DNA from: Eledone cirrhosa
Lineage: Eukaryota
NCBI GenBank assembly: GCA_964016885.1
Contig: OZ024740.1
Location: forward strand, 413,726,001 to 413,790,000
Reading direction: 5' to 3'
Length of the DNA stretch: 64,000 bases
The position numbers and the translations under genes are program-made. A model generated the notes under the pieces. The model was given only the letters and a program-made list of their open reading frames with translations. It was not told the origin of the DNA and ran no database searches. Positions 1,099 through 53,846 of the stretch are shown piece by piece (positions within the stretch are counted from its first letter, which is position 1; every line of letters starts with the position of its first letter).

Positions 1099-1160
<62 letters not shown>

Positions 1161-1211
1161 TAATAAAAATATTGAATAAAAACAAAGAAATAGTTCCTTA
1201 TATTAAAAAAT

Positions 1212-1342
1212 TCATCATTTTACGATCGTTTCTATGATATATATGTGTGAGTTGGTATGTATATCATATGTAAAATTTTTACAAACGATCAGAGGGAATA
1301 TACATACCTACACATATATATGCTGTCTTCAGAAATAATGAT
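1212..1342 (-). ncRNA. Type I hammerhead-like ribozyme with long stem II (family A)
   Basis: ATCATTATTT-CTGAAGA..long ATATATGTG/CACATATAT stem..GAAAC-GATC-GTA-AAATGATGA. Confidence 0.7.
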
Positions 1343-4642: not shown

Positions 4643-4869
4643 GAAAAGGAGCTCAACTATATATATAGAGGGAGTTATAAAATTATATATATATATACAA
4701 AAATATGAATACCTTCATAAAATTAAGAGCAAAGTATGTAGATAAATCTAACAAAATGTACGGTAGTGTCCAATCCGTATGAAGAACTCAATGTAATCCG
4801 AATATCATGAAAAGAGAAGATGTATTCAAAATGTTTTTAGATGAAAAACACAGGAAAACAGAGTCAATA

Positions 4870-6871
4870 CATTATTATTCCTCTATATCACCTATACTCC
4901 TGAACAAAGCCTTGATATTTGCCAAAAATAGATCAAACTTAACTATGGATGACATTAATATTATCACACATGCTAGACAAACACTACTGGAATTTCAGAA
5001 AGAATACTGGACCAGAAACACATATAGTAATCTATTCGACATTACTATGGGCTCTAGTGATTCTGCCCAAATTACCGATGTTGTGGGCCTCTTTCTTCTA
5101 TTTAACATAAATGCTTCTTTTCCCCACCTTAAAGGTGGTTTATATCGTGACGACTGTCTTCTTCTTTCCAATAACCTTAGCCTATCAGAAATTGAAAAAA
5201 ATAAAAAAACTTATTAGAACTTTCCTCAAAGACTATTATAGTCTCGATATTACATTTATAAACACAAGTAAAGTAGTTAATTTCCTTGATATAACATTAG
5301 ACTTATCTACGGGTATCTACCAACCTTACCATAAACCTAACCAAAACTTACATTACATACACTCACAATCTAATCACCCTAAATCTATCCTTAAAAACCT
5401 AGCATATAATATCTCACTCAGAATTTCTAACCTTTCGTCTAACCAGGATGTATTTGATAAAAATGCGACCTTTTATAACGAAGCTTTAGCTAGAAGCGGC
5501 CACAAAAACAAATTAGTATATATACCTTGTACCAATAACACTACAAACATACAACCCAATATTACCAACAAACACCAAATGAAATATACACACCTAAATG
5601 CCACTCACACTATACCCCAAAATACCAACATAAAACTTAATTTCTCTAACTCTTCTAATATACAATATAGTAACTTTCAAAAAACCATTCCTCCTAATAC
5701 TGCAATATATGTTAATAACAAAATTCCTAATAAACAGGCTAAAACACCTAAATCAATGAATCTAACTAAAAATATGTGTAATAAAATCACTAATACCAAT
5801 TCTCTTAATAAACATCAGGATACATCCTATAAAAATAATAAACAACATCGAAACCGTAATAGACGAGTTACTTGGTATAATGCTCCATTTAATCTACAAA
5901 TTAAAGATAATATACCTAAAATATCTTTTACCATCCTAGAGAAAAACTTCCCGCCAAACCATAAAAACCATCAAATTTTAAATAGATCAATAGTTAAATT
6001 CTCCTACTCAACAACCAAAAATATACAACAAAATATAAGTGCCTATAATGCATATAAATGTAAAAAGAACCATGAATATACCACCAATACATCAAACTAA
6101 CCATAATACTAAAATAAACCACAGCAAACCACCATCTCATTCACATACAACAAGTCGTGAAAATTCCACACCTAATTTGACTATCTCCTCTGATACAGCA
6201 TTCACGAAAGGTTCTAACTGTAGAAACAAAGCAAATTGCCCATTAAAAGGAAATTGCCTTATTAATAACATAGTATATAAATGTAAAATTAACACTAAGG
6301 ACTCAACTTATTCATATATAGGAGCTACTTCTAACCAATTTAAAGTAAGATTTAATACCCACAAACACAGTTTTAAAAATGCTGCATTAGCTAATACAAC
6401 ATCCTTAGCTGAAATAATTAATAATTATAGAAAAAGGAATATAAATTATAACCTGACCTGGAGTGTGCTCAAAAGGGCCACCCCTTATCAAAATAATAGA
6501 TATGAATGTAGATTATTTTCCCAGGAACTTTTTGAAATAATGAAATCTAAGGATATCCTATTAAATAAGCGACAGGAATTAATTATATCATGTAATCATA
6601 AATTGAGAAAAACTTTTAAATATTATAAACCTAATTAATATACACTTTACAAATTATTATAATAACACTTTTTTTTAATTAGTTAACCTATAATTAATAT
6701 TCTACTACTAATGAACTGCATAATTTTATTTCCCTTTTACAGCTATCTTTTCCTAAAATTTATACCAATAAGTATACATATAAACTATTTTAATTTCAGG
6801 TTATGAATCTATATTCCTTATAATCTATATAAATTTGTTATTTCTCACTAATAAATTTACCCCACCCTCCC

Positions 6872-6904
<33 letters not shown>

Positions 6905-7718
6905 TTTTTTTTTATTTTCCCTTCGTTTTTAACAGCATTCTTCAATTACATCTAACTCTTATTTATCATATCTATATGAATTAATATAAATTTATCAATA
7001 TAAATATACCTATCAATTTAATTAATTTATTTTCTTTTTATAGATGTAAATTCCTTATGTTTTAAATAAGATTGATATTTTTCACTAACACATTTATCGT
7101 AAAATGTTATTCTCCTTAGATATTTACATTAGCATTATTCTTTTATAACTTCAAATTTTCGTGTACCTTTTAGCGACTTGACCTATTTTCATCCCCAAAA
7201 TAATCTTTTCATTCATTATACTCTTTCCATTCAAAACTGAAATCTGCCTTCCTCTACCCCTAAATTAAAGTTCCATTACTACTATTCTAGCATCTTGACC
7301 ACTTACTACCTTTCTATTGGTCAATTCAAAAAGTGTTCCCAAACAGACCTATTATATTAAATCTTTGTTGGTTTTTTTCAATAAACAAATATCATTATTT
7401 CTGAAGACAGTATATATATGTGTAGGTATGTATATTCCCTCTGATAGTTTGTAAACATTTTACATAGATCTATATGATATATATACCAACACACATATAT
7501 ATATCATAGAAACGATCGTAAAATGATGAATTTTTTAATATAAGGAACTGTTTCTTTGTTTTTATTCATTATTTTTATTAATTTATCTTGACTCTGTTTT
7601 CCTGTGTTTTTCATCGAAAAAAACTTTTGGATACATCTTCTCTTTTCATGATATTCGGATTACATTGAGCTCTTCATACGGATTGGACACTACCGTACAT
7701 TTTGGTAGATTTATCTAC

Positions 7719-7720
<2 letters not shown>
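4870..7720 (+). mobile_element. Naiad-type PLE family A, 5'-truncated arm with complete 3' tail
   Basis: ORFs 4807-5217 (N-terminus chimeric; GGLYRDD), 5111-6100 and 6039-6638 (GIY-YIG, LLNKRQEL..CNH). About 1.1-kb 3'UTR ends at GATTTATCTACA, followed by (TA)n. Confidence 0.93.
7391..7529 (+). ncRNA. Type I hammerhead-like ribozyme with long stem II (family A)
   Basis: CTGAAGA at 7401 and GAAACGATCGTA at 7509-7520. Stem I pairs TCATTATTT with AAATGATGA. Confidence 0.72.
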
Positions 7721-7779: not shown

Positions 7780-11240
<3,461 letters not shown>

Positions 11241-11263
11241 TGTATATATATATATATATATAT

Positions 11264-12126: not shown

Positions 12127-12130
<4 letters not shown>

Positions 12131-13298
12131 GATAAATCTACCAAGAGTTTACGGTAGTGTCCAATCCGTATGAAGAACTCAATGTATTCCGGATATCATG
12201 GAAAGAAGAGATGTAATGAAAAACCACTTTCGGTGAAAGATAAACGGTATACAGAGTCAAGATAAAATATTAAACAAATAATGAATAAACAATTCCTTAT
12301 ATTAAACAAAAAAAGTTCATTATTTAACGATCCTTTCTAGGATATATATGTGTTATAATTGGTATGCATATTCAACAGATCTATGTACAAAATTATACAA
12401 AATTATACAAATTATCAAGATTAAATATACATACCAAACACATATATACGCCGTCTTCAGAAATAATGAAGTATATTTATTGATAATAACAACAATTCAA
12501 AATTTCAGTTCAAAATTGACCAATGAAAACACAAAGGGTTAAATGCAGTTCGGTGTGTGTATATACATGTAAAACCCCCACACATATTTTACAAAAATGT
12601 ATGTATAATTTGTATACGCATACTAAAAGGATGGATGCAAATACAAAATTTCAAGGTTAATGTCTCTGTGAGCTTACAATGCGCAGATAAGATGCGCATT
12701 GATACTTATGAAATCAAGTATATAAATATATTTTTTCATACTCACACATATCAGTACAATCACACATACACGCGCGTATATGCATAAATATACACATAAC
12801 CAAGAACATACAAACACACACACACCCCCACTCACATTTATATATGTGGATATAAAATCATAATCACATGGATATTAATTCACTCACATAAAACACTGGC
12901 ACACACATTTCTAGATCAAGATACAGAAATTAGGTGGGAGGGGGGGGGGGGGAGGGGTCAGTATTCAACTGTCTGAGCAAACTGCCTAATATAAATGTAT
13001 CTATAAATTAAGAAAAATAAAAAAATAAAACAATAAAATATAATAAATATAATATAATATATATACACATACAGATATATACACATACATACATGTACGC
13101 ACACATAGAAATATTTACGCATACACACATACACACATACATATACAGTCATACACACACATACACTTACACGAACATACACATACACATATATAAAGAT
13201 ATATATATACACACACACACACACACGCAACACATACACACATACACATATATATAAAAATAAACAATAAAGATATATACCTATATATATATACACAC

Positions 13299-13329
<31 letters not shown>

Positions 13330-13763
13330 TATACACACACATACATCTAAATATACATACACATACATACACACACACATGTACATACATGTACATACAT
13401 ATACGCACATCGATATACATATATATATATATACATACATATATATACACACACATAGACATGTAGATACATACACACACAACTTACATACACACATATA
13501 TATATACACGTATATTCATACATAGAATTAGATATATAATCATACATACATATGCACTTACTTATACTCATATATACAAATACATACGCATCTATATATG
13601 CATATATACATAAAAAATCACTACAACCTCACCTAACTCAGACATACAAATAAAAATAAAAATAATAATAAAAAGGCATATGTATATACATACACACACG
13701 CATTAATAGAGATATATATATATAGACACATACATACACATATATATATATATATATATACAC

Positions 13764-13797
<34 letters not shown>

Positions 13798-13908
13798 ACT
13801 CATACATATATATATATATATATATATACATATACACATAGATATCCACACACTCATACCACCATAAATACACATACAAACACCCACATATATATATATA
13901 TACACACG

Positions 13909-13940
<32 letters not shown>

Positions 13941-14065
13941 TAAAAAACAGACATGCACATATATATATATATATTAATTACACTTATATATACACATATT
14001 ATATACACATACACAACCTCACTTATACACACATACACATAAGTTATATTATAATAATAAAGAAT

Positions 14066-14103
<38 letters not shown>

Positions 14104-14203
14104 CATATATATACATACATACAAACACATACATACATACATATAAACATATACATACATAAATACACACATACTAATAAAGACATATATTCACACATAG
14201 ACA

Positions 14204-14251
<48 letters not shown>

Positions 14252-15393
14252 TATATACATATATACACACACACATATACACAGACACATATACACACTC
14301 ACATATATATATGTGTGTGTGCGCACACACACATATATACACACACACACACAAATACACATAAACACATACATATGCATACATGCACACACACACACAC
14401 ATATATCACATAGATACGAAGATAAACATATAAATAGAGAGACATACATATATATACAACACACATACACACACATACATACACACGCATATACATATAC
14501 ATATATATATACATATATATATATTCCTATATATACATGCATACACATATATACACATATATACACATACATACACATATACGTACACACATTCACATAC
14601 ACATACATATATAATGCATATATACACATATATACATACATATACACACTCATATATACACACGCAATCTTACATTCATATTTGCATGCGCATATATGTA
14701 TTTTTATATTTAGATATAAATACCCAAACCTATATAGACACCTACCTACATATATATTCATACATAGACGCTTACAAATACAGATGATAATAGTATGGGG
14801 GAAAGGGGGGGTTTGGAGAAGGGGATCAAAGTAAATATATGTTTCAAGAAACATAGAAAATTTTCCGTATTTTTATCCAATGTATGTTCTTACATATTTT
14901 CAGTGTTAGGAAATACGACAAACAAGAACTAAGGCAAAATCTATGCATCTCAAAATAAATAAGTATATCATTAATCATATGTTAACTAAACCAAAGATAG
15001 TCAACATATTGATTTCTAAGGTGTAAATTAGTTAGGTTTATAATATTTGAAGCAGAATTTTGAAGTCAAACAGTAGTAGATTATTAATTACAGTATAACT
15101 AAATTAAAGTTAATAACGTTATGGTATCAATATTAGGAAATGAATTTAGTAATAGGGAAAAAAAACACAAATAAAAATAAAATAAAGTATTACATCGGTA
15201 GTAGAATATAAATTATATGTTAACTAAATTAAAAATTATATATTTATTTCAATAGTATATGTTAATTAGGTATACAATACATAAAGCAGATACTGTATTT
15301 CATCAATAGCATAATATAATTATATGCAAATAGAAATCAAAGTTAATACGCATACATATACATATACATACACATACACATATACATACATAT

Positions 15394-15446
<53 letters not shown>

Positions 15447-16499
15447 TACATACATACACATACACATACACACACACACATACACATACACATATACATA
15501 TACATATCTTTTTCAAAAAATTGCATAGAATATATTAACTAGGTATATATCCAAAACACATCCCATTCTATGATTACATGACATTCTGCAATTCGTCTGT
15601 ATAAGGATAACTAATTTTAAGCAAATTAAAATTAAAATTTTTAGGTTGATTAAAACTAAAACCAAATAATAAATATATTTCTAAAATGTATATTAATTAG
15701 GTCTATAATACTAAAAATTATTTCTCTGTCATTGGATACACGATATTATTTTGTTATATTTTATCTGTAAAAGAGTTATAATAAAATGTTTAAATAAATT
15801 AAAATTAATCTATAAATTAAATTACTAAGTATATATTAGTAATATTTAAAGGTTTTTCACAATTTATGATTACATAATATTTTATATTCTCATCTGTAAT
15901 AAAATATTAATTAAATTAAATTTATAGGTTAACTAACATTTAAATTAAATTAATTTCTAAAATAATGTTATTAATTAGGTTTATAATATTTAAATGTTTT
16001 TTTTAGTTTATGATTACACGATATAATTAATTCCTGTCGTTTATTTAATAAGATATCCTTAGACTTCATTATTTCAAATAGTTCTTGGGAACATAATCTA
16101 CATTCATTTCTATTATTTTGATAAGGGGTGGCTCTTTTGAGCACACTCCAGGTCAAATCATATTTTATATTCTTATTTTTATAACTATTGATTTTTTCTG
16201 CTAGAGATGTTGTATTAGCCAGTGCGGCATTTTTAAAACTATGCTTGTGGGTATTAAACCTTGTCTTAAAATTGTTAGAGGTAGCTCCTATATATGAGCA
16301 AATAGAATCTTTAGTTTTAACATTACATTTATAGACTATGTTGTTAACAAGACAATTCCCTTTTAATGGGCAGTTTGCTTTGTTTCTACAGTTACATCCT
16401 TTCGTTAATTCTGTATTTGAGGAGATATTATGGTTAATTTGATGTACTGGTGGTATACTTATGGTTTTCTTACATTTATATGCATTATATGCACTTATA
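12127..16499 (-). mobile_element. Naiad-type PLE family B, 5'-truncated copy (endonuclease C-terminus, long low-complexity 3'UTR, hammerhead, tail)
   Basis: 15971-16499 matches 61054-61580. UTR anchors are colinear with 48243-51511 and 55222-61053. Terminus TGTAGATAAATCTACC. Confidence 0.9.
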
Positions 16500-17419
16500 T
16501 ATATATATATATATATATATAGATAGATAATTTAATATATCTACTAACATAAGCGCACAGATGTACGCTAATGCCAGCAAATACACAGGTTATGTCATAG
16601 TACCTAGGTGGTTCAATGCAGGAGGATGCAGAACAATAATATAACAGACGTAAAATAAGAAAATTTTCTTTTTTTTATTTTAACTTACTTACTTAAGTAA
16701 GTTAAAATTTAAAAAAAAAAATTTTTTTTTTTTAATTTTCTTATTTTACGTCTGTTATATATATATATATATATATACATATATATACATACATATATAT
16801 ATATACGCACACACATATATATATATATACACTCATACATAAAATGTATGGGTTTGCCTATATACGTATGGGTGTGTTTCAAGAGGATTCAATGAAATGT
16901 CAATGAGAGAAATTTCACTTAAAGTGTAAGCTAAAATTAGTTGCTGAATGTTGAAAATAGAAAGTTATGAAATGTATGCAGACGTAAAGTTAAATTAAAA
17001 TCATTGAATATTAAAATATGAAGAAAATTGTTCTATTTGGCTCAGAAGTAGTTGATATCATTCAACGGAAAGGAGTATACAACTTAACTGACGTACTATC
17101 ACTTGGTATTCATCCAGTATAAGTATCTACTGCAGAGAAAGTAATTATAAACAGCAAACCAATGTAAGATGTGGTAGATGATTTTTTTTTTTTTTGCATT
17201 AGATGTGTGTAGCATATGAAGTTTTAAACAAATGAGATTTATCCAAAATATTGATCAAGTATTGGCAATTGAATGATTGTAACTTGAAGTTCAAATGTCG
17301 TCCAGTTAATACCACTTTTTCAACTTCGGACAATGAGAATATAAATGATATGTATATAACTGGATAGATTTAGTAACCGTTTTTCCTTATAAAGTGTGAG
17401 GTCCATCTCTAAATAAGTA

Positions 17420-22320: not shown

Positions 22321-22323
<3 letters not shown>

Positions 22324-22512
22324 CAAAGGAATTGTGGTAATGAACCAGATGGACCATAATGCACCAGAGTACTCAATACTTAGGGTAGTAGAGTGGGAAT
22401 TAGGAAAAAGTATGAAACAGACGGCAGAGCTCAAGCCGTTTAGACGGCTATTTCTGAGTCCAGAAATAGCCGTCGAAACGGCTTCAGCTCTGCCGTCGGG
22501 GTCATACTTTTT

Positions 22513-22516
<4 letters not shown>
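22321..22516 (-). mobile_element. Mini hairpin+tail insertion (family also at 27629-27821, 37020-37150 and 41172-41370)
   Basis: Tail AACAAAGGAA..GTACTCAATAC..GTAGTAGAGTGG, then hairpin GACGGCAGAGCTCAAGCCGTT..AACGGCTTCAGCTCTGCCGTC. Confidence 0.8.
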
Positions 22517-26377: not shown

Positions 26378-26460
<83 letters not shown>

Positions 26461-26646: not shown

Positions 26647-26655
26647 CTTGTGTAT

Positions 26656-27050
26656 AATGGTGGCTATGATGCTTCCATAGGCGGTACGCCAAAATTAGCA
26701 CTCAATATTCAACAGAGTAGAGTGTGTATAGTATAAAAATCGAAAAATCAGTGATGCAACTGGACTCAATTTATTGCGTGTTACAATTGTTTCGCCGGAA
26801 GGTAGCTCGAGACATGGTCCCTGTGTGTATCTGGCTGATTCTACGGCTGCAAGTTCTTTCAGACACGGGTAGTTCGTTCGGAGCAAATTTTATCACTGTG
26901 ATAAAATACCCGTGTCTGAAGGAACCTGCAGCCGTAGAATCAGCCAGATCCATACAGGGACCATGTCTTGAGCTACCTGCCGGCGAAACAATTGTAACAC
27001 GCAATAAATTGAGTCCAGATGCATCACTGATTTTTCGTGTTTTTATTCTA
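26656..27050 (-). mobile_element. Mini PLE-like insertion with inverted hammerhead-like arms plus tail
   Basis: Arms ~26728-26871 and ~26907-27050. CGTGT-CTGAAGGA..GAAAC-AATT-GTA-ACACG, then AATAAA. Related to 29716-30082. Confidence 0.8.
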
Positions 27051-27155: not shown

Positions 27156-27530
27156 GGTAGTGTAACTTGGAGTTACTGTAGGTTCACCCTGGGGAGCACT
27201 CGATGTTTATGTTCCCTTCTGTGTCGAGGTGTAGAGCTATACAGAGTGTATTATATTGAAAAGATAACAGGCCGATTGGTTACTCCTTCGTTACATTTAT
27301 TGGTTGGTGACACGCGATTCGCCACTGATCCGCTCAAGGTTCGATCTGTATCGATCGTACCCGACTCTGTCATTTGCAGCTTGACGTCGGGTTCCGTCGA
27401 GCTGCAGATTACAGAGTCGGGTAAGATCGATACAGATCGAACCTTGAGCTGATCAATGGCGAAACGCGCATCACCAACCAATAAATGTAACGAAGGAGTA
27501 ACCAATCGTCCTTGTTATCTTTTCAATATA
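27156..27530 (-). mobile_element. Mini PLE-like insertion: ~135-bp hairpin arms plus tail
   Basis: Arms 27252-27387 and 27396-27530. Contains GAAACGCGC/GT, related to the hammerhead at 46921-47013. Tail 27156-27250. Confidence 0.8.
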
Positions 27531-27596
27531 TATATATATATATATTTATTAAAATAACAGATTAAAGTTTAAGCAAAGAATCGCTGCTTTCACCCT

Positions 27597-27628
<32 letters not shown>

Positions 27629-27631
<3 letters not shown>

Positions 27632-27818: not shown

Positions 27819-27821
<3 letters not shown>
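27629..27821 (-). mobile_element. Mini hairpin+tail insertion (22321 family)
   Basis: ~52-bp perfect arms AGGAACCAGTAAGACCCCG..AATT / AATT..CGGGGTCTTACTGGTTCCT. Confidence 0.85.
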
Positions 27822-27857: not shown

Positions 27858-28572
27858 CGAAAATGTTCGCTCTACATGGCTGAATACAATAAATGTAATC
27901 TAAGTTTTTCGAATATTAATAATAACATTCGATTCGTTTGCAATTATGCAAACAAGCCTCAATTTCATATCCCTGTCAGAAGAATTAACCCTTCATTATT
28001 GCTCTTGTGTTGGCATGTGAACAGAACTGCAGACACTAATGTTTCTGGGTACCACCCTTCATCAGTACAGCTCAGTGTTCACCTGCCAAACTGTCAGAGC
28101 TAGTGAAAATATATGCTATTTTCAAAAATACACAGTGACAGATCGGCCTGATTTGCATATTAGCAGACTGGCTGATCAGTTAGATCTGCATATTAGCAGA
28201 TCCACTGATCAGCCATATTTGCATATCAGCAGACTGGCCAGTCAGTTTCCTGTATAAGAGCGACAAATGGCCGGCTTTGCCAAATTCAAATAAAAAAGAA
28301 AGTTTTCGCTCTATATGGCTGAATCCAATAAATGTAATCTGAGTTTTTCGAATATTAATAATATCATTCGATTCGTTTGCAATTATGCAAACAAGCCTCA
28401 ATTTTATAGACATGTCAGTAGAATGAACCCTTCATTCTTGCTCTTGTGTTGTCAAAGCCGGCCATTTATGGCTCGTATGTCATTCTACTGACATGGCTAT
28501 AAAATTGAAGCTTGTTTGCATAATTGCAAACGAATCGAATGTTATTACTAATATTCGAAAAACTCATATTAC

Positions 28573-28578
<6 letters not shown>
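27857..28578 (-). mobile_element. Retrozyme-like non-coding tandem element (~439-bp unit) with inverted arm
   Basis: CGCTCTA(C/T)ATGGCTGAAT at 27868 and 28307. Hammerhead at 28027-28070. Inverted segment ~28452-28578. Confidence 0.72.
28027..28070 (-). ncRNA. Minimal type I hammerhead ribozyme
   Basis: CTGTA-CTGATGA-AGGGTGGTACCCA-GAAAC-ATTAGT-GTC-TGCAG. Confidence 0.78.
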
Positions 28579-28624
<46 letters not shown>

Positions 28625-28629
<5 letters not shown>

Positions 28630-28746
28630 GGTTTGAGGTTCACCACTGTATAGAGCTGGTCTATTCATACGGAACCCGGTCATTGAAATGATCATAGTAT
28701 AATAAACCTTTCAACGATTTACACAAATCCAGCCTCCTGTCATTTC

Positions 28747-28750
<4 letters not shown>
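28625..28750. mobile_element. Ultra-short two-arm insertion of family G
   Basis: 28625-28660 is the inverted extreme tail (compare ~53810-53846). 28661-28750 is the direct hammerhead half ending at CATTATA (compare 53613-53703). Confidence 0.8.
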
Positions 28751-28790
<40 letters not shown>

Positions 28791-30140: not shown

Positions 30141-30146
<6 letters not shown>

Positions 30147-37019: not shown

Positions 37020-37021
<2 letters not shown>

Positions 37022-37147
37022 CGAAGGAAGCATGGTAAGGAACCAGATCGACCATAACGTACTGGATACCTTGGGTAGTAGAGTGGGTTCTGCGATCTAG
37101 TTGTCTAAAAACCACCGATGCTCAGCCGTTGGGGTCCTGACTCTTTT

Positions 37148-37191
<44 letters not shown>

Positions 37192-37339: not shown

Positions 37340-40309
37340 TATGGTAAATATCTTTAAGACGTTTGGAAGCCTCGACAATGTAAATGGGTAAATCTCCGGG
37401 TAACAAGATCCGGTGGTGGAGAGAGAGATGTAAGTGGGTGTACGTTGAGATGCGTGGTGTGTATAAGAAGTGTAGAGGAATGAAGGAAAGAGTATAAAGG
37501 ATAAAATAAAAATAACAACACGAGAGAGAGTTACCTTGGGAGAGATTTAATTGTCCCTATATATTTCGGATTCACATCCATCAACTGGGGGTATTTTCCG
37601 TGGTGGGGGAAAGGTTGTCTGTTGAAAAGGTGCGAAACGCGTCCTTCGCTGTTTGTTGATTTGAATATCTGAGGTATTCAGCAGAGCGCGCGTGCGCGTG
37701 GAATGGGGTCGGTCGGGCAGAGGTCAGCGGCCGAATGTGGGAGTAGGGTGGCGCAAGCTGTCAGTCCATTCTCTGCCTGTTTGTTAAATGTTACTCTGTG
37801 TGTATGCGTGCGTGTGTTGTTGTCTCGCTTGAGTGTGTGTGTGTACGTGCGTGTGTTGTTGCCTTGTTCCTCTGTATTGGCAGTGTAGTATGTTCGTATG
37901 GTGGAATGCTACTGTGTGTGTGTGTGCGTGTGTAATTGTCTCGTGTGTGTGTGTGTGTGTGCGTGTGTTGCTGCATCTTTGTTAACTTAAACCAGCCACC
38001 TCATTTCGCTTCTCTCGGATCGATTGTTTATTTGCGGTTCCAAGCGTTTGATAAAAAGTGCTTCCTTGATACGTAACGTGCCGACGTTTCTTTCAGTCGC
38101 TAGAATTGTGACAATGGGCCTTCCTTCTTTGTTTCCGCATTTGTCTATGTGTTTCCGGAAAGACGAGGCCCTGGTTTTAGTGTGTTCCTTGATCCGGATG
38201 TGCAAAGATCGGATTGTGCTACCTATATAGTATTGGTTGCACCTGTCACATTCTATCTTATACACGACGTATGTGCGTAGGCAACAGTTCGCATGGCGTA
38301 TCGGGCAGTCTCTGGGGAGCAGGCCTTAGTAGATTCCCGGGTTTCCTGGAGAGGCATCTTCGCAGTGAGGGGCCCGAGTGAGCCAGGTGGATGCCGAGGC
38401 CCTCCCTCCGTATAGCCTTGCGGATAGCGTTGGTGGTATTCTAGCCCAGGTGTGGCATTTTAAGGAAGAACTTGCCTTGGGTGCCTCTCTATCTCTTGTG
38501 TCTGGTGTCTCCTACTCTGTCTGTGAGCGAGGTGGGGTACCCGTTCGGCTCCAGCACCTCGAAGAATCGCTTGGTATGAGTGACACCACTCGCGGGATCG
38601 CTGCATCTGTTTTTGATTCGCGCGATCTCGTTCGTGATGTATCCGCTTTTGGCACTGTTAGGGAGGGCGGACTTGTAGTGAACGAACAGGTCCCTGCAGG
38701 CTTCCTTTCGGTAGAAGTTGCAGTGGATCCTTCCCTGTTCCGTGATGTTGATCCGGAAGTCGAGGAGGGCAAGTGACCCGTCTTCGTTGGGGTGTTCAAC
38801 ACTGAAGTCAATGTTCTCGTCCGTGTTGTTGAACGTCTCATAGATTCTGTTCGCCGTGTCTTGGGAAGATGTGAGGATGAGGATATCGTCCACGTACCTT
38901 GAGAAAAAGGCGAAGGCGTTGGGGTGGCAGGCGTTCAGTGCCTTGCGCTCGAGGTTGTCCATGTAAGAGATCGCTAGCACACCCGTCAGACTTGATCCCA
39001 TGGGCAATCCCGAGGTTTGTTGGTATGTTTGTCAAGCAATCCGAAGTAGGTGTTGTCGACGACGATGGATAGGAGTTGCTGGATGTCAGTGGTGGTGAGC
39101 CCGAAGCAGTGTAGGTCGGTGGATTGGACGCGTTCCATCAGTATATTGACGGCCGGAACCGAGGTGTAGAGAGCGACTACATCAAGGCTGAAGGCATATC
39201 TGTTATTCCTTCTGGTGTCGGGATCCATTTGATGCAGGCGCTTCAACACCTCCTCGGAGCTGTTAACGTGTCTAGACAAGGTGTCTAAGATGGGTTTGAG
39301 TATTCTGGCTAGGAGCCATGAAATTTTGTAGAGTGGTCCCTCCACGCTCGATACAATGGGCCTGATCTTCAGGTTGGGTCCCTATTTGTGTGTTTTCACG
39401 AGGTGGTAAAAGGCGGGTAGTCTGCTGTTCCTCGTGAGGAGGTTGTATCTCAGCTTCTTCGGGAGCTTCCGCCGGTCGCAGATGTTGGTCCAGGCGGCGT
39501 TGATGTGCTCTTCTATCTGCGCGGGAGTGATTCCCGTGACCTTGGAGTAGAGGTTGTCATCGTCAAGGTGTTGGAGGGCCAGCGTGTTGTAGGCCTCTCT
39601 GCTGATGACGCAGAATTCTTTTCCCTTGTCGGAGGGGAGATAGATGAGGTTCTTCGATTTTAGGTTGGAGAGAGTGGTGAGTTGAGATTTGGTAAGGTTA
39701 TGTGTTGTGCGTGTGTGTGTGTGTTTGTGAAGTATATCCGAGATGGAGTGTTTTAGCCTGATGAGTTTAGTGTCGAGTTCGTGGTTGGTGGGTGGGGGTG
39801 GAGTGGGTTTTCGGGGTTGTAAGTGGGGAACTTGGGGTGGGTTGCGTGGTCGCTGTTATTTTCTGTGGCGCTGTTGATTTAAGTTGGTAAGCGGCTCGAC
39901 AAAAGTTGGCCTCGATGTTGAGTTTGAGTCTGTCGTCGAGACGTTGTGAGACGATGAACTTGGGTCCGAGGTGTAGGAGTTTCAGCTCGTCGCTCGTGAG
40001 AGTGCCGGTTAGGTCGGTGACCAGGTGCGTCGCATCGTTGAGGTGTGGTTCGGTGTTGGTGGATGCGGCGGTGGCGGTTGTTAAGTTGTTGTTTTCCACG
40101 TGGTTCTACTCCATCTGTTCGTTAGTGTCGATGTTCTCGTTGCGGCGTTTCGACAAGATGCACTCATATTTTCGCTTGAGCCGTTTTTTCTCGTATTGGA
40201 CTCTGGAGTGGTAGCACTGGTCGATTGCTTTAGTGATTTTCAGGAGCAAGTCACCGGGTGCTATTGACAGTCGATGTGTCCGCTCTGAGAGTGTCCGCTT
40301 ATGGACGGT
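37340..40309 (-). mobile_element. Poseidon-like PLE family E, decayed, with 3' tail
   Basis: LGPKF, RPIVS, FSLDVVALYTSVP, PMGSSL, SRYVDDI, LALLD, YKIECDRCNQYYIGSTIR..IKEH and LRIKEALFI..PQIN in ORF pieces 37987-40099. Confidence 0.9.
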
Positions 40310-41171
40310 CAGAGACTGCACGATACGCCATGCGAACTGTTGCCTACGCACATACGTCGTGTATGAGATAGAATGTGACAGGTCCAACCAATACTATATA
40401 GGTAGCACAATCCGACCTTTGCACATCCGGATCAAGGAACACACTAAAACCAGGGCCTCGTCTTTCCGGAAACACATAGACAAATGCGGAAACAAAGACG
40501 GAAGGCCCATTGTCACAATTCTAGCGACTGAAAGAAACGTCGGCACGTTACGTATCAAGGAAGTGCTTTTTATCAAACGCCTGGAACCGCAAATAAACAA
40601 TCGATCCGAGAGAAGCGAAATGAGGTGGCTGGTTTTAGTTAACAAAGATGCAGCAACACACGCACACACACACACAAACGAGACAATTACACACGCACAC
40701 GCACACACATACACAGTAGCATTCCACCATACGAACATACTACACTGCCAATACAGAGGAACAAGGCAACAACACACGCACACACTCACACAGTAACATT
40801 TAATATACAGGCAGAGAATGGACTGACAGCTAGCGCCACCCCACTCCCACATTCGGCCGCTGACCTCTGCCCGACCTACCCCATTTCACGCGCACGCGCG
40901 CTCGGCTGAATACCTCAGATATTCAAAACAACAAACAGCGAAGGACGCGTTTCGCACCTTTCCGACAGACAACCTTTCCCCCACCCCGGAAAAAAACCCC
41001 AGTTGATGGATGTGAATCCGAAATATATAGGGACAATTAAATCTCTCCCAAGGTAACTCTCTCTTGTGTAGTTATTTTTATTTTATCCTTTATACTCTTT
41101 CCTTCATTCCTCTACACTTCTTATACAGACCATGCATCTCAACGTACACCCACTTACATCTCTCTCTCACC
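40310..41171 (+). mobile_element. Family E inverted arm (GIY-YIG plus 3'UTR, lacking the tail)
   Basis: Reverse complement of ~37416-38313. Hammerhead-like CCC-CAGTTGA-TGGA..TCC-GAAATATATA-GGG at 40997-41032. Confidence 0.88.
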
Positions 41172-41485: not shown

Positions 41486-41600
41486 TAGTAATAATAATAA
41501 ATTTGAAGACTAAATTCCAAAGAGGGCTCGATAAGGATAGATATATATAAAAAATATAAAAACCGTAGATTCTTTGCCTAACCTTTAATCTGTTATTTTA

Positions 41601-41610
<10 letters not shown>
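41486..41610. mobile_element. Ultra-short two-arm insertion of family F
   Basis: Inverted tail 41486-41569, then direct TTCTTTGC..TTTTAATAAATAT ending at the same point as 10465. Confidence 0.8.
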
Positions 41611-43010: not shown

Positions 43011-43154
43011 ACACAATATACAATATATTAACAAATGGAAACTATATTTATAAAACCATATTTATTTCATTATACTCCAATAATGTGTTGAGTGCTTTAT
43101 ATCAGTTATAAAAATATTTTGCTTGTTGTATCCCAACAAATTAAATATAACCTC

Positions 43155-43158
<4 letters not shown>
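43011..43158 (+). mobile_element. Mini insertion related to 47770-48150
   Basis: Shares AAATGGAAACTATATTTATAAAACCATATTTATT and a tail containing CCAACAAATTAAATA. Confidence 0.7.
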
Positions 43159-47679: not shown

Positions 47680-47769
<90 letters not shown>

Positions 47770-47772
<3 letters not shown>

Positions 47773-48150
47773 ATGATATTAAATAAATGGAAACTATATT
47801 TATAAAACCATATTTATTTTGTTATATATATTTCAAGGGTACCAAGACAACATTGCTACGCTTTCATCAGATAAAATACAAAGTTTGTCTTATAAATAGA
47901 GACATACCCATGAAAATCATACCTTATCGGTTAGAAAATCACTGGATAGTATTTTATCTGATGAAAGCGTACCAATGTTGTCTTTGTTACAATTGAAATA
48001 TATAGAATAACATAAATATGGTTTTAAAAATATAGTTTCCATTTATTTAATATCATTGAATATTTACTCCAGTACGCTGTTGAATGCTCTAAAGCAGTTT
48101 TAAACATTTATGTTTGTCGGACTTCCAACAAATTAAATAGCACTTCTACT
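47770..48150 (+). mobile_element. Mini PLE-like insertion with hammerheads in both inverted arms plus tail
   Basis: Arms 47771-47879 and 47949-48058. Minus-arm reading: TATTTTAT-CTGATGA-AAG..CTT-GAAATATATATA. Confidence 0.82.
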
Positions 48151-48242: not shown

Positions 48243-48246
<4 letters not shown>

Positions 48247-49210
48247 GATAAATCTACCAAGAGTTTACGGTAGTGTCCAATCCGTATGAAGAACTCAATG
48301 TATTCCGGATATCATGGAAAGAAGAGATGTAATGAAAAATCACTTTCGGTGAAAGATAAACGGTATACAGAGTCAAGATAAAATATTAAACAAATAATGA
48401 ATAAAACAATGAAACAGTTCCTTATATTAAACAAAAAAAGTTCATTATTTAACGATCGTTTCTAGGATATATATGTGTTAGAATTGGCATGCATATTCAA
48501 CAGATCTATGTACAAAATTATACAAAATTATACAAACTATCAAGATTAAATATACATACCAACACATATATACGCCGTCTTCAGAAATAATGAAATATAT
48601 TTATTGATAATAACAACAATTCAAAATTTCAGGTCCGTTTGGGAACAAAATTGACCAATGAAAATACAAAAGGTTTTATGCAGTTCGGTGTGTGTATATA
48701 CATGTAACTACCCTTACACATATTTTACAAAAATGTATGCTCAACTTGTATACGCATACCAAAAGGATGGATGCAAATACAAAATTTCAAGGTTAATGTC
48801 TCTGTAAGTTTACAATGCACAGATAAGATGCGTATAGACACATAAATATGAAATAAGTGTATACACATATTCTCATACTCACACATATCCGTACAATCAC
48901 ACACACGCGCGCGTATATGCATAAACATACACATAATTACGAACATACAAACACACACACACCCCCACTCACATATATATATGTGGATATAATATCATAA
49001 GCACATGGATATTAATTCACTCACATAAACACTACCACACACATTTAGATCAAGATACAGAAATTAGGTGGGAGGGGGGGAGAGGTCAGTATTCAACGGT
49101 TTGGGCAGACTGCTTATTATAGATGTATCTATAAACTAAGAAAATAAAAAATGAAAATTAAAAAGGAAAGAAAAGAAAAAGAAAAAAGAAAAAGGAAATA
49201 TATCAAGAAA

Positions 49211-49284
<74 letters not shown>

Positions 49285-49381
49285 ACATACATACATATAC
49301 ACACATCCACACTTAGAACATACATACACACACATATATAAACATATACATATACACACATACACACATATACACACATAC

Positions 49382-49434
<53 letters not shown>

Positions 49435-49711
49435 TACACATATAATCACACATACTATATAGACACACATATATATACACACATACACGCACATATACAT
49501 ACACATACATACTTATATACATACAGATATACACATACATACCTATATATACACACAAATACATACAGACATACATACATACATACACACAAATACTTAC
49601 GCATCCATATATCGGTATATACATACAAACACCACTACACTCTCACACAACTCAGACATACAAAGAAAAAGGTATATACCTATACACATATACATATACA
49701 AATAGAGATAC

Positions 49712-49770
<59 letters not shown>

Positions 49771-49958
49771 CACATATACACACATATACATACATACACA
49801 TACATACATGTACACACATACATATACATACATACACACATACACACATACATATATAGTCATACACACACATACACCTACACGAACATACACATACACA
49901 TATATAAAGATATATATACACACACACACATACACACACACACATATATATAACATAA

Positions 49959-50003
<45 letters not shown>

Positions 50004-50575
50004 CATATACATACACACATACATAGACATATATGTACATACATACACATACATACATACATACACACACATATATACATATATATACACACATAGACAC
50101 ATACATACATACACACACAACATACATACACACACATATATACTCATACAAATTAGATATATATTCATACATACATACGCACTTACATATACTCATATAT
50201 ACAAATACATACGCATCCATATATGCGTATATACATACAAACACCACTACACCCTCACACAACTCAGACATACAAAGAAAAAGGCATATACATATACATA
50301 TATACACGCATTAATAGAGATATATATACACACATATATATATATATATATATATACACATACATTTATATATATACACCCACACACACATACAACCATA
50401 AACACACATACAAACACACACATACACATATATATACACATACATATATATACACACACACAAAAAACAGACATACACATATATATTTTTTTACACATAT
50501 ATATACACATATATATACATATACACACTCTCACATATACACACATACACATAAGTTATATTATAATAATAAATA

Positions 50576-50616
<41 letters not shown>

Positions 50617-50851
50617 CGAATATAGACATATATACACACATATATATATATATATATATATACATATACACACACACACACTCACATATATATGTGCGCA
50701 CACGTACATATATATACATACACACATATACACGTAAACACATACATGTGCATACATGCACACACACACATATACCCACATAGATACGAAGATAGACATA
50801 TAAATAGAGAGACATACATATATATACACACACATATATACATACATACAT

Positions 50852-50894
<43 letters not shown>

Positions 50895-51693
50895 CACACA
50901 TACACGCCCACACACATATACACATATACACATATATATACATACACACATACACATACACATATATATATACACATGCATATATACACATATATATATA
51001 CATACACACATATATATACACACAATCTTACATTCTTATTTGCATGCGCATATATGTATTTTTATATTCAGATATAAATACCCAAACATATATACACCTA
51101 CCTACATATATATTCATACATACACGCTTACAAACACAGATGATAATAGTATGGGGGAAAGGGGGGGGGGGTTGGAGAAGGGGATTATAGTAAATATATG
51201 TTTCAAGAAACATAGAATATTATCTGTATCTGGATCCAATGTATGTTTTTACATAGTTTCAGTGTTAGGAAATACAAGAAATAAGGCAAAATTTATGCAT
51301 TTCAAAATAAATAAGTATACCATTAATTATATGTTAACTAAACTAAAGATAGTTAACATATTGATTTCTAAGGTGTAAATTAGTTAGGTTTATAATATTT
51401 GAAGCAGAATTTTGAAGTTAAATAGTAGTAGAGTATTAATTATAGTATAACTAAATTATAGTTAATAACGTTATGGTATCAATATTAGGAAATGAATTTA
51501 GTAATAGGGAAAATGTGTTGGTATGTATATTTAATCTTGATAGTTTGTATAATTTTGTATAATTTTGTACATAGATCTGTTGAATATGCATGCCAATTCT
51601 AACACATATATATCCTAGAAACGATCGTTAAATAATGAACTTTTTTTGTTTAATATAAGGAACTGTTTCATTGTTTTATTCATTATTTGTTTA

Positions 51694-51702
<9 letters not shown>
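48243..51702 (-). mobile_element. Naiad family B 3'UTR-only copy (48243-51511) with inverted arm (51513-51702)
   Basis: Colinear with 12127-15160 and 55222-60330. The inverted arm ends at AATATTTTAT before (TA)n. Confidence 0.88.
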
Positions 51703-51725: not shown

Positions 51726-53846
51726 ATAATGAAATGACAGGAGGCTGGATTTGTGTACATCCTTGAAAGGTTTATTATACTATGATCATTTCAATGACCG
51801 GGTTCCGTATGAATCCGGTGATATCATCAGGTATTCGAAATATAATAAGTGAATGTAATAGATAAAATTTCCCCATCTTACTCCACCACCCCTGTTGTTG
51901 GTCTATTTATATATTTATATATTTATACCTTTGCTTTCTTAATGTGCTTTTCCACGTATTTCACTTCTATGTAACCATGTATTTCTACTCCTCTTATTGG
52001 GACTTTTGCTCACTTGTACCCATTAGCACACGACACTAGAATGTCTCCCCCTGAGAACAAAAATAAATGTTACCCGACTATAATCCTTACTCTACAACCC
52101 ACTAGGATAGCTTATAGAAGATCTACATAATACAATTAACGTTTCTTCATAAAAGACTCTCTTTAACTAAACCCCGCAACCCAAAACCTTAAAAAAGTTT
52201 TTTTAAATGTTTAATTTTCAATTTTCTGTTTGTTCAATTCTTAATCTTCTTACTCTTTAATTTTATAATGTTATTCTGAATTCTTTCAACTTCATCCTAT
52301 AAATTTAAACAATATTTTAACGTTCCAAATTTCTGTCGGACTGTTGGGTTGGTTTTCCTGGCGGCGGGACCGGCCCCCTGGCGCATAGGCCTACCTTGAA
52401 TGCTTGGAAAAATAAATTTCCCCTTCTTTCGGTAAATGAAACTACTCGGAGTGGCTTGATTCACCCCAGGAGCCCGGCGCGCAGCCGATTTTTTAACCGC
52501 CATATAGTACCTTTAAATTACAGATCAAATCAGAACTATTAGATATATCACGCCTCCCTCTACTTAAACAAACCCCCCTCCTGGGTAAAGGAATAGTACT
52601 GGTTTTGTACAAGAATGGCCTAACGATGCGGGCTGACTTCCTGCTGGCGCAACTGAAGCCTGTTATACATTCCTAGGGTGCTCCGAAAAATCGACTTCCA
52701 TATCTTTCGCTAAGCGATATCACTCGGAGTGATGGGCTGGCCTAGCTTGTAGTCGCCGCATGCTGTTTGACGGCTAAACAAAGTCATAATCTTTACTCTA
52801 TAATAACATTTAAGTGTCTTTATAAAAGACTCTTTCTTTGCTTAAACCTCGCAACCTTAAAAATGTTAAACTGTTTAACTTTAAATTTTCTAATATCTTT
52901 AATATTAAATATTAATTTTTTAACTTCATTCTATAAGTCTAAACAAAAACGTAACGTTCCAATCTTCTGCTCACACATTATAACACACTGAACCCCACTA
53001 TATTTACCTCTGCTAAGATACGGGTCCCTGTGAAAAAATTTTTCGCGCCATTCCTGGCCTGACTGTAGTCTGACATTAATATCGACCTTTCTTCCTCTTT
53101 CTTTCTATCTTTCTTCTTGTAGCCATCAACCCTGATTTTCTACTTCTTCCTTTTCTTCCTTCTCTTCTCCCTTCTTTCTGTCTTCCTCCCGCTGACTTAT
53201 CTTCCTTCCCCTTTTGTTTGCCTATATTTGACCGGTAATAGTTGTTAAGATACGGGTGCCTTAGAATAAAAAAACTTTTCGCGACAATCCTGGCCTGACT
53301 GTAATACCGACCGTTCCTCCTCTTTCTTTCTGTCTTTCTTCTTATAGCTGACATTAACCCTGGCTTCTCTTCTTCTTTCTTTCTTTTTTCTTGTGGCATG
53401 ATATTAACGCTAACTTATGTCCCTATCCCTTTCTGTTTTCCTTTATTTGACCGGTAGTAGCACACTGTAAGCTTTAGCCACGTCACTCGAGGGCCACCGG
53501 CAAAGGTAGGAGATGCTGGATGGCGGTCGCCCTCGGGTCTTTGATTTTCAGCCCCATGGATTTTATCTATTACATTCACTTATTATATTTCGAATACCTG
53601 ATGATATCACCGGATTCATACGGAACCCGGTCATTGAAATGATCATGGTGTAATAAACCTTTCAAGGATTTACACAAATCCAGCCTCCTGTCATTTCATT
53701 ATAATATTTAACTCCGTAATAGCACCAACAACTACAAAAACAAAGACGGTTGAACTGCTTTACGTTGAGTACTCTCTATATTATTGCATTGTGATTGACC
53801 ATACGGAATTGACCAGCGCTATCCAGTGGTGAACCTCAAACCTGAA
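51722..53846 (+). mobile_element. PLE-like non-coding element G with inverted arm 51722-~51868 and hammerhead
   Basis: ATAC-CTGATGA-TATCACCGG..CCGGTCATT-GAAA-TGATCA-T(A/G)-GT at 53594-53651 (+) and 51777-51834 (-). Tail 53704-53846. Confidence 0.8.

What the first reader, a model, noticed from the sequence alone, without database searches (positions are those of the whole stretch)
28625..28750. Size continuum of two-arm insertions (~125 bp to 6.5 kb) with two fixed endpoints per family
Seen in sequence: each insert is an arm ending at the tail tip joined to an oppositely oriented arm ending at the internal site. The smallest cases (28625-28750 family G; 41486-41610 family F) have non-overlapping arms. 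Mid-size cases form hairpins (11066, 22321, 26656, 27156, 27629, 47770). Large cases form kb palindromes (1157-7720, 37340-41171, 48243-51702). Overlapping arms do not fit classical L1 twin priming on one linear RNA. Inference: both ends of a (TA)n break are primed independently, on two RNAs or sequentially, at different defined sites, then joined.
Basis: partly seen in the sequence, partly recalled or inferred. Interest (0 to 1): 0.72.

Follow-up and report, generated by a model that had tools for sequence, protein, structure and literature searches.

The report
Penelope retrotransposon twin-primed inverted inserts
These back-to-back inserts are a known signature of Penelope-type jumping genes, but here each of the two fixed start points sits just before a copy of the same small RNA hairpin, which suggests a testable rule for how these elements choose where to start copying themselves.

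Summary
28627-28748 is a tail-tip arm joined head-to-head to an arm ending at an internal site of the 51726-53846 element. The window holds Penelope-like retroelements (PLEs), mostly Hydra clade, in (TA)n. All 21 two-arm inserts with both ends scorable pair one tip end (T) with one internal end (X), and arms share private variants.

Much is published: inverted 5'-truncated copies, a one-sided tail, two RT start sites bounding the tail, and extension of both strands in vitro.

Not found in nine literature searches: a bulged RNA stem-loop starts 2-10 nt 3' of X. A second copy starts 4-8 nt 3' of T. Both copies occur in 6 of 6 long Hydra 5'UTRs, including four from other genomes, and their spacing matches tail length in 3 of 3 elements.

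Corrections: there is no single size continuum; three families have fixed centres; seven single-arm inserts exist; X+T pairing fails in 2 of 8 cases from other genomes; overlapping arms do not prove two RNAs.

Verdict: a known system with a new candidate cis-signal for both priming sites. Mechanism inferred, not shown.

The parts
28627..28748 (.). Focal 122-bp two-arm insert, family G; arms do not overlap
28627..28661 (-). Tip (T) arm: last ~36-40 nt of the family G tail, 3' end facing the left (TA)n
   Evidence: 34/36 identity to 53811-53846
28663..28748 (+). Internal (X) arm: 3' half of the hammerhead through to site X, 3' end facing the right (TA)n; 4-nt microhomology plus one mismatch at the junction
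   Evidence: 85/88 identity to 53614-53701; junction
28576..28626 (.). Left (TA)n target tract
28749..28790 (.). Right (TA)n target tract
51726..53846 (+). Large family G insert: inverted X arm 51726-51868, forward arm 51869-53846 ending at tip T
   Evidence: arms 97.9% over 143 nt
53593..53652 (+). Type I hammerhead ribozyme motif with palindromic stem III; cleavage position 53647, 55 nt 5' of X
   Evidence: descriptor scan; not detected by Rfam
53711..53770 (+). Stem-loop SL1 of family G, starting 7-8 nt 3' of X; tail 53703-53846 is 144 nt
   Evidence: fold z -2.4
1158..7720 (.). Family A1 palindrome: left arm (minus, ~4871 to 1158) is one whole monomer from just 5' of SL1 to X; right arm 4874-7720 is 5'-truncated and ends at T; arms 98.2% over 2.7 kb
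4786..4864 (-). SL1 in the 5'UTR of the A1 monomer
4651..4730 (-). SL2 in the 5'UTR of A1, starting 4-8 nt 3' of the tip T
61054..63545 (-). Hydra-clade PLE ORF (RT plus C-terminal GIY-YIG), in two frames with a frameshift near 63021-63138
63697..63777 (-). SL1 of subfamily A2-5, in a pLTR-tail-ORF partial tandem
   Evidence: fold z -4.6
63524..63639 (-). SL2 of subfamily A2-5, starting 5-8 nt 3' of the tip used at 12128 and 48244
48244..51699 (.). Family A3 insert: T arm 48244-51513 (minus), X arm 51513-51699; overlap of 188 nt is 100% identical
41490..41604 (.). Family F minimal insert: tail-only T arm stopping inside the base of SL1, plus 36-nt X arm; 2-nt microhomology
43012..43157 (.).
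37021..37149 (.).
11069..11242 (+). Family B hairpin (also 11892-12072 and 43215-43385); centre about 55 nt 5' of X; 71-nt tail
22323..22514 (-). Family C hairpin (also 27631-27820 and 41173-41368); homologous centres, insert-specific arms; 80-nt tail
26647..27048 (-). Family D hairpin (also 29716-30081) with hammerhead-like motif
27156..27525 (-). Family E hairpin, 100-nt tail with SL1
47769..48150 (+). Family H hairpin with hammerhead motif, 92-nt tail
10652..10969 (+).
16522..16755 (-).
28295..28575 (-). Family I hairpin next to the focal insert, 35-nt tail, no clear SL1
37343..41171 (-). Two-arm insert of a non-Hydra PLE (RT, GIY-YIG, DKG motif); 71-nt tail without SL1; arms 91% over 0.9 kb
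7784..10462 (+). Single-arm Hydra-like PLE of family F ending at X; RT 49% identical to family A
27546..27599 (-). 54-bp single X arm of family F between two (TA)n tracts
12128..16487 (-). Single T arm of family A, (TA)n on both sides

Best explanation
These are insertions of Penelope-like retroelements, mostly Hydra clade, and their short non-coding derivatives. SHOWN IN SEQUENCE: the RNA strand reads hammerhead, X, stem-loop SL1, tail, T, stem-loop SL2, ATG. Arms end 2-10 nt 5' of SL1 (X) or 4-8 nt 5' of SL2 (T), face outward into (TA)n, and are joined at their 5'-truncated ends. INFERRED: the GIY-YIG domain cuts both strands of (TA)n. The RT binds a bulged stem-loop and starts copying a few bases 5' of it, using a few UA bases of pairing with the target. 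Two RTs, one per stem-loop and perhaps as a dimer, prime the two DNA ends, giving one X arm and one T arm. The two cDNAs anneal through microhomology or through self-complementary parts of the hammerhead. If the T-primed RT stops where the X-primed copy begins, or at an RNA 5' end there, the arms do not overlap. If it runs on (tandem, terminally redundant or circular RNA, strand displacement, or a second RNA), a hairpin or palindrome results. Derivatives that kept only SL1 probably regenerate T by priming on the (UA)n that follows it, or come from tandem masters with both loops.
For: Hydra diagnostics are present in family A, with hammerheads 52-72 nt 5' of X. 21 of 21 scorable two-arm inserts are X+T; for 12 families the chance under free choice of ends is 2.4e-4. 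Motif scan: 14 strict hits against 1.55 +/- 1.1 (maximum 4) in 40 block shuffles, all 14 in element tails or 5'UTRs. Test anchored on arm ends only: both stem strands found in 11 of 13 families (4.3% of random positions), and 25 of 33 unselected upper-stem pairs formed against 41% expected, P about 6e-5. Upper-stem pair types vary across 37 hand-picked loops. Two loops occur in 6 of 6 5'UTRs long enough to hold both (A1, A5, L001, L007, L009, L011). SL1-to-T versus SL1-to-SL2 distances are 128/134, 130/138 and 60/68 nt. T ends lie 4, 5, 5, 4 and 8 nt from SL2, like X ends from SL1. In 4 of 5 non-overlapping inserts the T arm stops within about 5 nt of the SL1 base (rough P 0.001). Arms share private variants. 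In vitro precedent: two RT start sites bounding the tail, both strands extended, a requirement for RNA 3' of the start sites, and a predicted dimer (PMC11167929).
Against: No binding or priming data exist for these loops. The T-SL2 link rests on three independent families (A, L009, L012); for L012 the two copies compared are relatives, not one element. In other genomes 6 of 8 resolved inserts are X+T, but L010 is T+T and L003 2102-5895 is X+X (read by eye). The in vitro study saw no difference in start site between strands. Families I, J and M lack a clear loop yet are X+T. The focal insert is the exception among minimal inserts: its T arm stops about 96 nt 3' of the SL1 base. SL2 of L011 has almost no upper stem. 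In one search three of 37 loops were given the wrong 3' strand and the locus loops were pre-selected for pairing. B1 and B2 share arm asymmetries, as copying of a whole hairpin would give. Shared variants also follow from gene conversion or snap-back.
Confidence: 0.58

Rival explanations
1. Self-priming or snap-back: one cDNA (or an antisense template) folds back at a palindrome and copies itself, and the endonuclease resolves the intermediate at X, leaving the tail on one side. The stem-loop would then be an endonuclease recognition signal, not an RT start signal.
For: This is the published reading: self-priming inferred from palindromes at inverted junctions (PMC3846280) and tail from EN-mediated resolution (PMC8557442); the D. 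virilis tail was needed for EN recognition (as cited in PMC11167929). 7 of 13 hairpins have loops of 8 nt or less. It gives arms identical at birth and X+T asymmetry directly. Mirror copies of flank across (TA)n show fold-back synthesis occurs in this genome.
Against: Four non-overlapping inserts in the window and one in L008 have X arms with no template in the T arm. Two X-only inserts exist. The A1 X arm is 1 kb longer than its T arm. RT starts at both tail boundaries in vitro.
Confidence: 0.18
2. The mid-size hairpins are fixed non-autonomous elements copied as whole units (SINE- or MITE-like), with arms later homogenised by gene conversion; only the large and minimal cases are made by double priming.
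For: Fixed sizes and homologous centres in B, C and D. B1 and B2 are 97.6% identical over 165 nt including the centre and share arm asymmetries.
Against: C and D arms group by insert (16 and 17 insert-shared sites against 0 and 1 side-shared). Families C, G and H contain both overlapping and non-overlapping forms with the same ends. Ends are asymmetric, unlike MITE terminal repeats.
Confidence: 0.12
3. Two RNAs (or two RNPs) prime the two DNA ends fully independently, each choosing X or T; the X+T excess is a bias of cutting geometry or of survival, since perfect palindromes are lost.
For: kb-long overlaps (A1 2.7 kb, J 0.9 kb). T+T and X+X cases in L010 and L003. Head-to-head pairs of two L1 copies are known (10.1101/2024.08.27.596794).
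Against: 0 of 21 symmetric cases in the window. Arms share variants. Tip arms stop at the X priming site in 4 of 5 minimal inserts, as expected on one RNA.
Confidence: 0.1
4. The smallest inserts are former hairpins whose centres were deleted after insertion, so the size range reflects decay.
For: Junctions carry 2-4 nt microhomology. Palindromes are deletion-prone (general knowledge). The focal insert's T arm ends at no special site.
Against: T-arm ends cluster at the SL1 base in 4 of 5 cases across families and genomes. The focal insert is 94-97% identical to the large copy, so there has been little time for decay.
Confidence: 0.06
5. Assembly or library artefact (fold-back reads at (TA)n).
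For: Palindromes next to long (TA)n are a known assembly risk (general knowledge); reads were not available.
Against: Arms differ by 2-14% in most inserts, ends fall at family-specific sites tied to an RNA motif, and the same anatomy appears in independent contigs from other genomes.
Confidence: 0.02

Closest known systems
Hydra clade of Penelope-like elements (Craig et al. 2021, PMC8557442; passages and sections 11 and 15 read)
   Same: RW(K/R), DKT and CxCX5C motifs, C-terminal GIY-YIG without CCHH, hammerheads, (TA)n targeting; inverted 5'-truncated copy and one-sided tail as described for PLEs in general.
   Different: Tails here are 65-144 nt in most families, not 30-40 (family I is 35). 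Family A units are 3.7 kb and longer, not under 3 kb. The paper has no 'stem-loop' or 'hairpin' in its main text and ascribes the tail to EN resolution.
Poseidon PAc of Anolis in vitro (Frangieh et al. 2024, PMC11167929; parts 1-2 of 4 read, supplementary figures not seen)
   Same: Two RT start sites bounding the tail, both DNA strands cut and extended, AT-rich target, hammerhead 5' of the start sites, predicted dimer.
   Different: Different clade. It describes an AC-rich stem-loop at the start site, not a duplicated bulged loop 3' of each site. It finds no strand bias in start site and does not address inverted arms.
Adineta vaga Penelope elements (Arkhipova et al. 2013, PMC3846280; parts 1-4 of 5 read)
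   Same: Inverted pLTR next to the direct copy, optional 31-bp tail on one side, palindromes at the junction, elements flanked by inverted pLTRs.
   Different: Explained by self-priming on an antisense template; 8-10 bp target duplications; no minimal non-overlapping inserts or tail loop in the parts read.
L1 twin priming (PMC2912911 and 10.1101/2024.08.27.596794; passages read)
   Same: Both nicks prime on the RNA; cDNAs anneal by microhomology; junctions show internal deletion or duplication.
   Different: In L1 the second site is spurious and variable and the first is poly(A). Here both sites are fixed and tied to an RNA structure, and overlaps reach kilobases.
Non-LTR retrozymes (10.64898/2026.07.22.740005, parts 1-3 of 5 read; PMC4209133, passages read)
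   Same: Short non-coding pLTR derivatives with type I hammerheads, proposed to be moved by PLEs; 35884-36930 is such a tandem.
   Different: Retrozymes are head-to-tail tandems; B, C, D, E, H, M and N here are head-to-head hairpins, several holding only part of the hammerhead.

Membership tests
Penelope-like elements (EN+) | Single ORF with RT and GIY-YIG endonuclease | tested here: met
   Family J pieces hit Pfam RVT_1 and GIY-YIG. Family A had no Pfam hit, but aligns end to end at 39-43% with relatives sharing the YRDD and YIG motifs, two of which carry PF01541. Window ORFs are frameshifted.
Penelope-like elements (EN+) | Partial tandems (pLTR), inverted 5'-truncated copies, optional tail | tested here: met
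   55226-55438 = 63788-64000 at 100% (direct pLTR); 21 inverted pairs; one-sided tails
Hydra clade | RWK-like motif and DKT in place of DKG | tested here: met
   RWR and DKT in ORFs 3596-4714 and 63021-63545; RWK and DKT in the consensus of relatives
Hydra clade | CxCX5C linker; CxxC and CxH in the EN; no CCHH | tested here: met
   C554-N-C556-X5-C562 invariant; C-terminal CxxC and CxH present; absence of CCHH judged by eye
Hydra clade | Canonical hammerhead in the pLTR | tested here: met
   Type I motif by descriptor in families A, G, H, P and (one mismatch) D; Rfam found none; activity untested
Hydra clade | (TA)n targeting | tested here: met
   three insert ends lack a tract (28295, 41171/41173, 41490)
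Hydra clade | Element shorter than 3 kb (typical, not strict) | tested here: not met
   A1 monomer is 3.7 kb; the A2-5 subfamily is longer, with a microsatellite-rich 3'UTR
Hydra clade | Phylogenetic placement among reference Hydra RTs | not tested
   No named reference Hydra proteins were fetched; placement rests on motifs
Hydra clade | Non-coding families (B, C, D, E, G, H, M, N) mobilised by a Hydra RT | tested here: inconclusive
   They share SL1, target and geometry with families A and F and with Hydra loci L001-L012, but no ORF of their own was found
MITE / TIR DNA transposon | Terminal inverted repeats at both ends | tested here: not met
   All 13 hairpins carry an unpaired 36-115 nt extension at one end; no symmetric insert among 64 segments
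MITE / TIR DNA transposon | Target-site duplication of fixed length | not testable with these tools
   (TA)n flanks hide any short duplication; no empty sites available
L1-type twin priming | Second priming site variable, first at poly(A) | tested here: not met
   Internal ends fixed in 20 of 21 measured; no poly(A). It works like twin priming but is not the L1 case.
Non-LTR retrozyme | Head-to-tail tandem monomers each with a complete type I hammerhead | tested here: not met
   Hairpin families are inverted, not tandem. Only 35884-36930 is tandem, with a degenerate core (by eye).

The most novel reading that the evidence does not exclude
Hydra-clade Penelope elements are programmed twin-primers. 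A pair of tandem bulged RNA stem-loops between the hammerhead and the start codon docks two reverse transcriptases, perhaps a dimer, that begin a fixed few bases 5' of each loop, one on each end of a (TA)n double-strand break. Loop spacing sets tail length, twin priming is the normal route of integration and replaces second-strand synthesis, and any RNA placed 5' of such a loop could be written into (TA)n.
Probability: 0.4. Interest if true: 0.75.

Novelty: new variant of a known kind. Interest (0 to 1): 0.55.

Why it matters
How PLEs make their inverted arms and one-sided tail is stated as open in the field (PMC8557442 section 15). The one in vitro study shows two start sites without saying what fixes them. 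A duplicated, covarying loop at a fixed distance from both ends gives a concrete cis-element to mutate, explains why tail length varies between families, and gives annotators a way to recognise short Hydra-derived hairpins that would otherwise be filed as MITEs or miRNA-like repeats. PLE RTs are the sister group of telomerase RT, so an RNA structure that sets the template start is of wider interest. If the loop proves to be an endonuclease signal or incidental, the finding reduces to a good example of known PLE architecture.

Tried and rejected
Rfam on the whole window gave only miRNA-model matches to (TA)n-rich hairpins, all below gathering scores, in the 150 of 261 rows shown. It gave one such match on six loci and nothing on 53500-53900. 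It also missed the hammerheads, so it is a weak negative for the loop. Pfam found no family for the Hydra ORFs. ARAGORN found no tRNA gene. A first, too strict motif pattern found one unrelated hit. MAFFT did not align the variable loops well, so pairs were counted from anchors instead. The alignment misplaces the tip arm and was not used. HHR cleavage as the cause of arm ends was considered: G arms cross the cleavage position, so it was rejected for G. A dimer prediction for the RT was not available, so the dimer rests on the published PAc model only. Text search of the PMC11167929 supplements found nothing; its figures S1-S2 could not be seen and may bear on the novelty of the loop. The host was not determined; named protein hits include molluscs, an echinoderm and a cnidarian. 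MITE, SINE and artefact readings were rejected as in the membership table and rivals.

Full report
SETTING. The window is AT-rich animal-like DNA with 86 merged (TA)n tracts. Its long ORFs are reverse transcriptases with a C-terminal GIY-YIG domain. Family A (61054-63545 minus, and both arms of 1158-7720) has 1542 relatives at E <= 0.001. It carries the motifs given as diagnostic for the Hydra clade of Penelope-like elements: RW(K/R), DKT, CxCX5C, no CCHH, hammerhead, (TA)n target. The element at 7784-10462 is a second Hydra-like family (49% identity). 37343-41171 and 30143-35613 are other PLE types, judged from motifs by eye and not placed in a tree.

THE OBSERVATION. 28627-28748 lies between two (TA)n tracts. 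Its left 36 bases are the reverse complement of the tip of element 51726-53846 (34/36). Its right 88 bases end at that element's internal site (85/88), the same site where the inverted arm 51726-51868 ends. The junction has four shared bases after one mismatch. I call the internal site X and the tip T; the tail is X to T. From tract flanks and self-BLAST I scored 21 two-arm inserts in 12 families, all X+T, and left out two that lost an end. Seven single-arm inserts also exist, and one element runs off the window. Tails are 65-144 nt, except 35 nt in family I. Sizes run from 115 bp to 6.56 kb, but B, C and D are nearly fixed in size with homologous centres, while A, F, G and H vary. Only 1158-7720 has multi-kb arms.

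ARMS SHARE PRIVATE VARIANTS. In four-arm comparisons of pairs of inserts, 56 sites group by insert, 2 by side and 1 crossed: C 16/0/1 over three overlapping comparisons, D 17/1/0, A1 against A3 23/0/0, B 0/1/0. A1 and A3 are different subfamilies, so that comparison is the least demanding. B1 and B2 are 97.6% identical and share asymmetries near the centre, which fits copying as a unit. The test excludes drift of a fixed composite for C and D but cannot separate fresh synthesis from gene conversion or snap-back.

A STEM-LOOP MARKS BOTH ENDS. Folding the tails showed a recurrent structure: a 4-bp lower stem (RCTC with GAGY), a 2-nt bulge on the 3' side, an upper stem and a loop of variable size. 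A strict scan gave 14 hits against 1.55 +/- 1.1 in 40 shuffles. Starting only from arm ends, 11 of 13 families had both strands (4.3% of random sites), and 25 of 33 upper-stem positions paired although pairing was not selected (41% expected; P about 6e-5). That simple rule picked the wrong strand for C and G, and failed for M and J. One scan of genome contigs returned 12 loci, animal-type Hydra elements inside bacterial assemblies; 9 of the 12 gave a hit in the motif scan, and L009 carries a bulge variant seen by eye. Across 37 loops the upper pairs take several pair types; three were mis-anchored and the locus loops were pre-selected for pairing. The last base an X arm shares with the continuing element lies 2-10 nt 5' of the stem in 20 of 21 ends measured and 12 nt in one. 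The key result is a second copy, SL2, in the 5'UTR. All six UTRs long enough to hold both have two loops; SL2 of L011 has a weak upper stem. T ends lie 4, 5, 5, 4 and 8 nt 5' of SL2 in A1, A2, A3, L009 and L012, and SL1-to-T tracks SL1-to-SL2 at 128/134, 130/138 and 60/68 nt. So the two fixed endpoints look like one rule applied to two copies of one RNA signal. This rests on three independent families.

WHERE ARMS STOP. I found two more non-overlapping inserts in the window (43012-43157, 37021-37149) and one in L008 (8705-8807). In 4 of 5 such inserts the T arm covers only the tail and stops within about 5 nt of the SL1 base; the focal insert is the exception (rough P 0.001). The X arm of A1 is one whole monomer that stops at the same place, and the full-length copy in L009 starts there. 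This fits collision with the X-primed copy on one RNA, an RNA 5' end at SL1, or a circular template. It is not an absolute block, since many arms pass it. Hairpin centres in C and M lie 14-18 nt 5' of a hammerhead GAAA, and in B and N at a short palindrome about 55-60 nt 5' of X, where stem III lies in other families. Two cDNAs crossing such a natural inverted repeat would anneal there, which could explain fixed centres without unit copying. This is inference and partly circular, because the hairpin itself makes the palindrome.

AGAINST A STRICT RULE. Of eight resolved two-arm inserts in the other genomes, six are X+T, one is T+T (L010) and one X+X (L003), read by eye. Families I, J and M are X+T without a clear loop. 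The in vitro study found the same start sites on both strands.

MECHANISM. Most likely (0.58): the endonuclease cuts both strands of (TA)n; two RTs, each positioned by a loop, prime the two ends; the cDNAs anneal. Overlap does not require two RNAs, because X and T recur on tandem or terminally redundant transcripts and L1 twin priming also yields internal duplications. Rivals are snap-back with endonuclease resolution (0.18, the published view), unit copying plus conversion for the hairpins (0.12), two fully independent RNAs (0.10), later deletion (0.06) and artefact (0.02). More than one may operate.

WHAT IS KNOWN. Inverted 5'-truncated copies and a 30-40 bp tail on one side are described for PLEs (PMC8557442, passages and sections 11 and 15; PMC8969392, passages), as are junction palindromes (PMC3846280, parts 1-4 of 5). 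Two RT start sites bounding the tail and extension of both strands were shown for a Poseidon element (PMC11167929, parts 1-2 of 4; supplementary figures not seen). Short hammerhead-bearing PLE derivatives are known as retrozymes (10.64898/2026.07.22.740005, parts 1-3 of 5; PMC4209133, passages). Nine searches found no paper describing a duplicated bulged loop at both ends, a count of X+T pairing, or twin priming applied to PLEs. The library lacks most subscription papers, including older Penelope work, and Repbase notes were not searched.

VERDICT. The tandem stem-loops give a new, directly testable account of both endpoints. New variant of a known kind; interest 0.55.

Noticed in passing
window 26241-26584, 37057-37281, 47433-47659, 42603-42690: Mirror duplications: 40-140 bp of flank copied in inverted orientation across a (TA)n tract, three of the four directly beside a PLE insert; suggests fold-back synthesis at cut (TA)n.
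   Followed up: partly
window 35884-36930: 593-bp tandem monomer with a degenerate hammerhead and both stem-loops, retrozyme-like; its inverted arm (35611-35883) is fused to the truncated second arm of the 30143-35613 element.
   Followed up: partly
window 56846-57095 (-): Small single-arm element with an intact hammerhead motif, SL1 and tail, inserted in the microsatellite 3'UTR of family A.
   Followed up: partly
window 595-1096 and 11268-11770: 503-bp segment duplicated at 98.8%, (TA)n on both sides and preceded in both places by the last bases of a family B tip; local duplication or a further element.
   Followed up: no
window 31959-34193 (-): PLE ORF with a long asparagine-rich insert, like those reported in Adineta Penelope ORFs; arms 97.9% identical over 1.5 kb.
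   Followed up: no
window 13000-15500, 49200-51000, 56000-60600: Subfamily A2-5 carries a kb-long (CA/TA) microsatellite-rich 3'UTR that is copied with the element.
   Followed up: no
window 57721-59460 (-): 579-aa non-LTR (LINE-type) RT frame inserted inside the family A 3'UTR.
   Followed up: no
window 17419-17584, 20083-20292, 20856-21062, 21792-22152, 25962-26066, 41407-41485, 45510-45709, 47053-47185: Dispersed ~190-bp SINE-like family, 80-92% identical, mostly not (TA)n-flanked; no tRNA gene called.
   Followed up: no
window 7758-7793: Two 17-bp repeats resembling the reverse complement of the family A tip, between the (TA)n and the start of the 7784-10462 element; possibly abortive priming or a mirror copy.
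   Followed up: no
L001-L012: Animal-type Hydra retroelements with (TA)n flanks sit in contigs of bacterial genome assemblies, most likely host contamination.
   Followed up: partly
L009 3516-6072: Apparently full-length Hydra copy between two (TA)n tracts with a 66-bp terminal direct repeat equal to the tail; a candidate template for in vitro work.
   Followed up: partly
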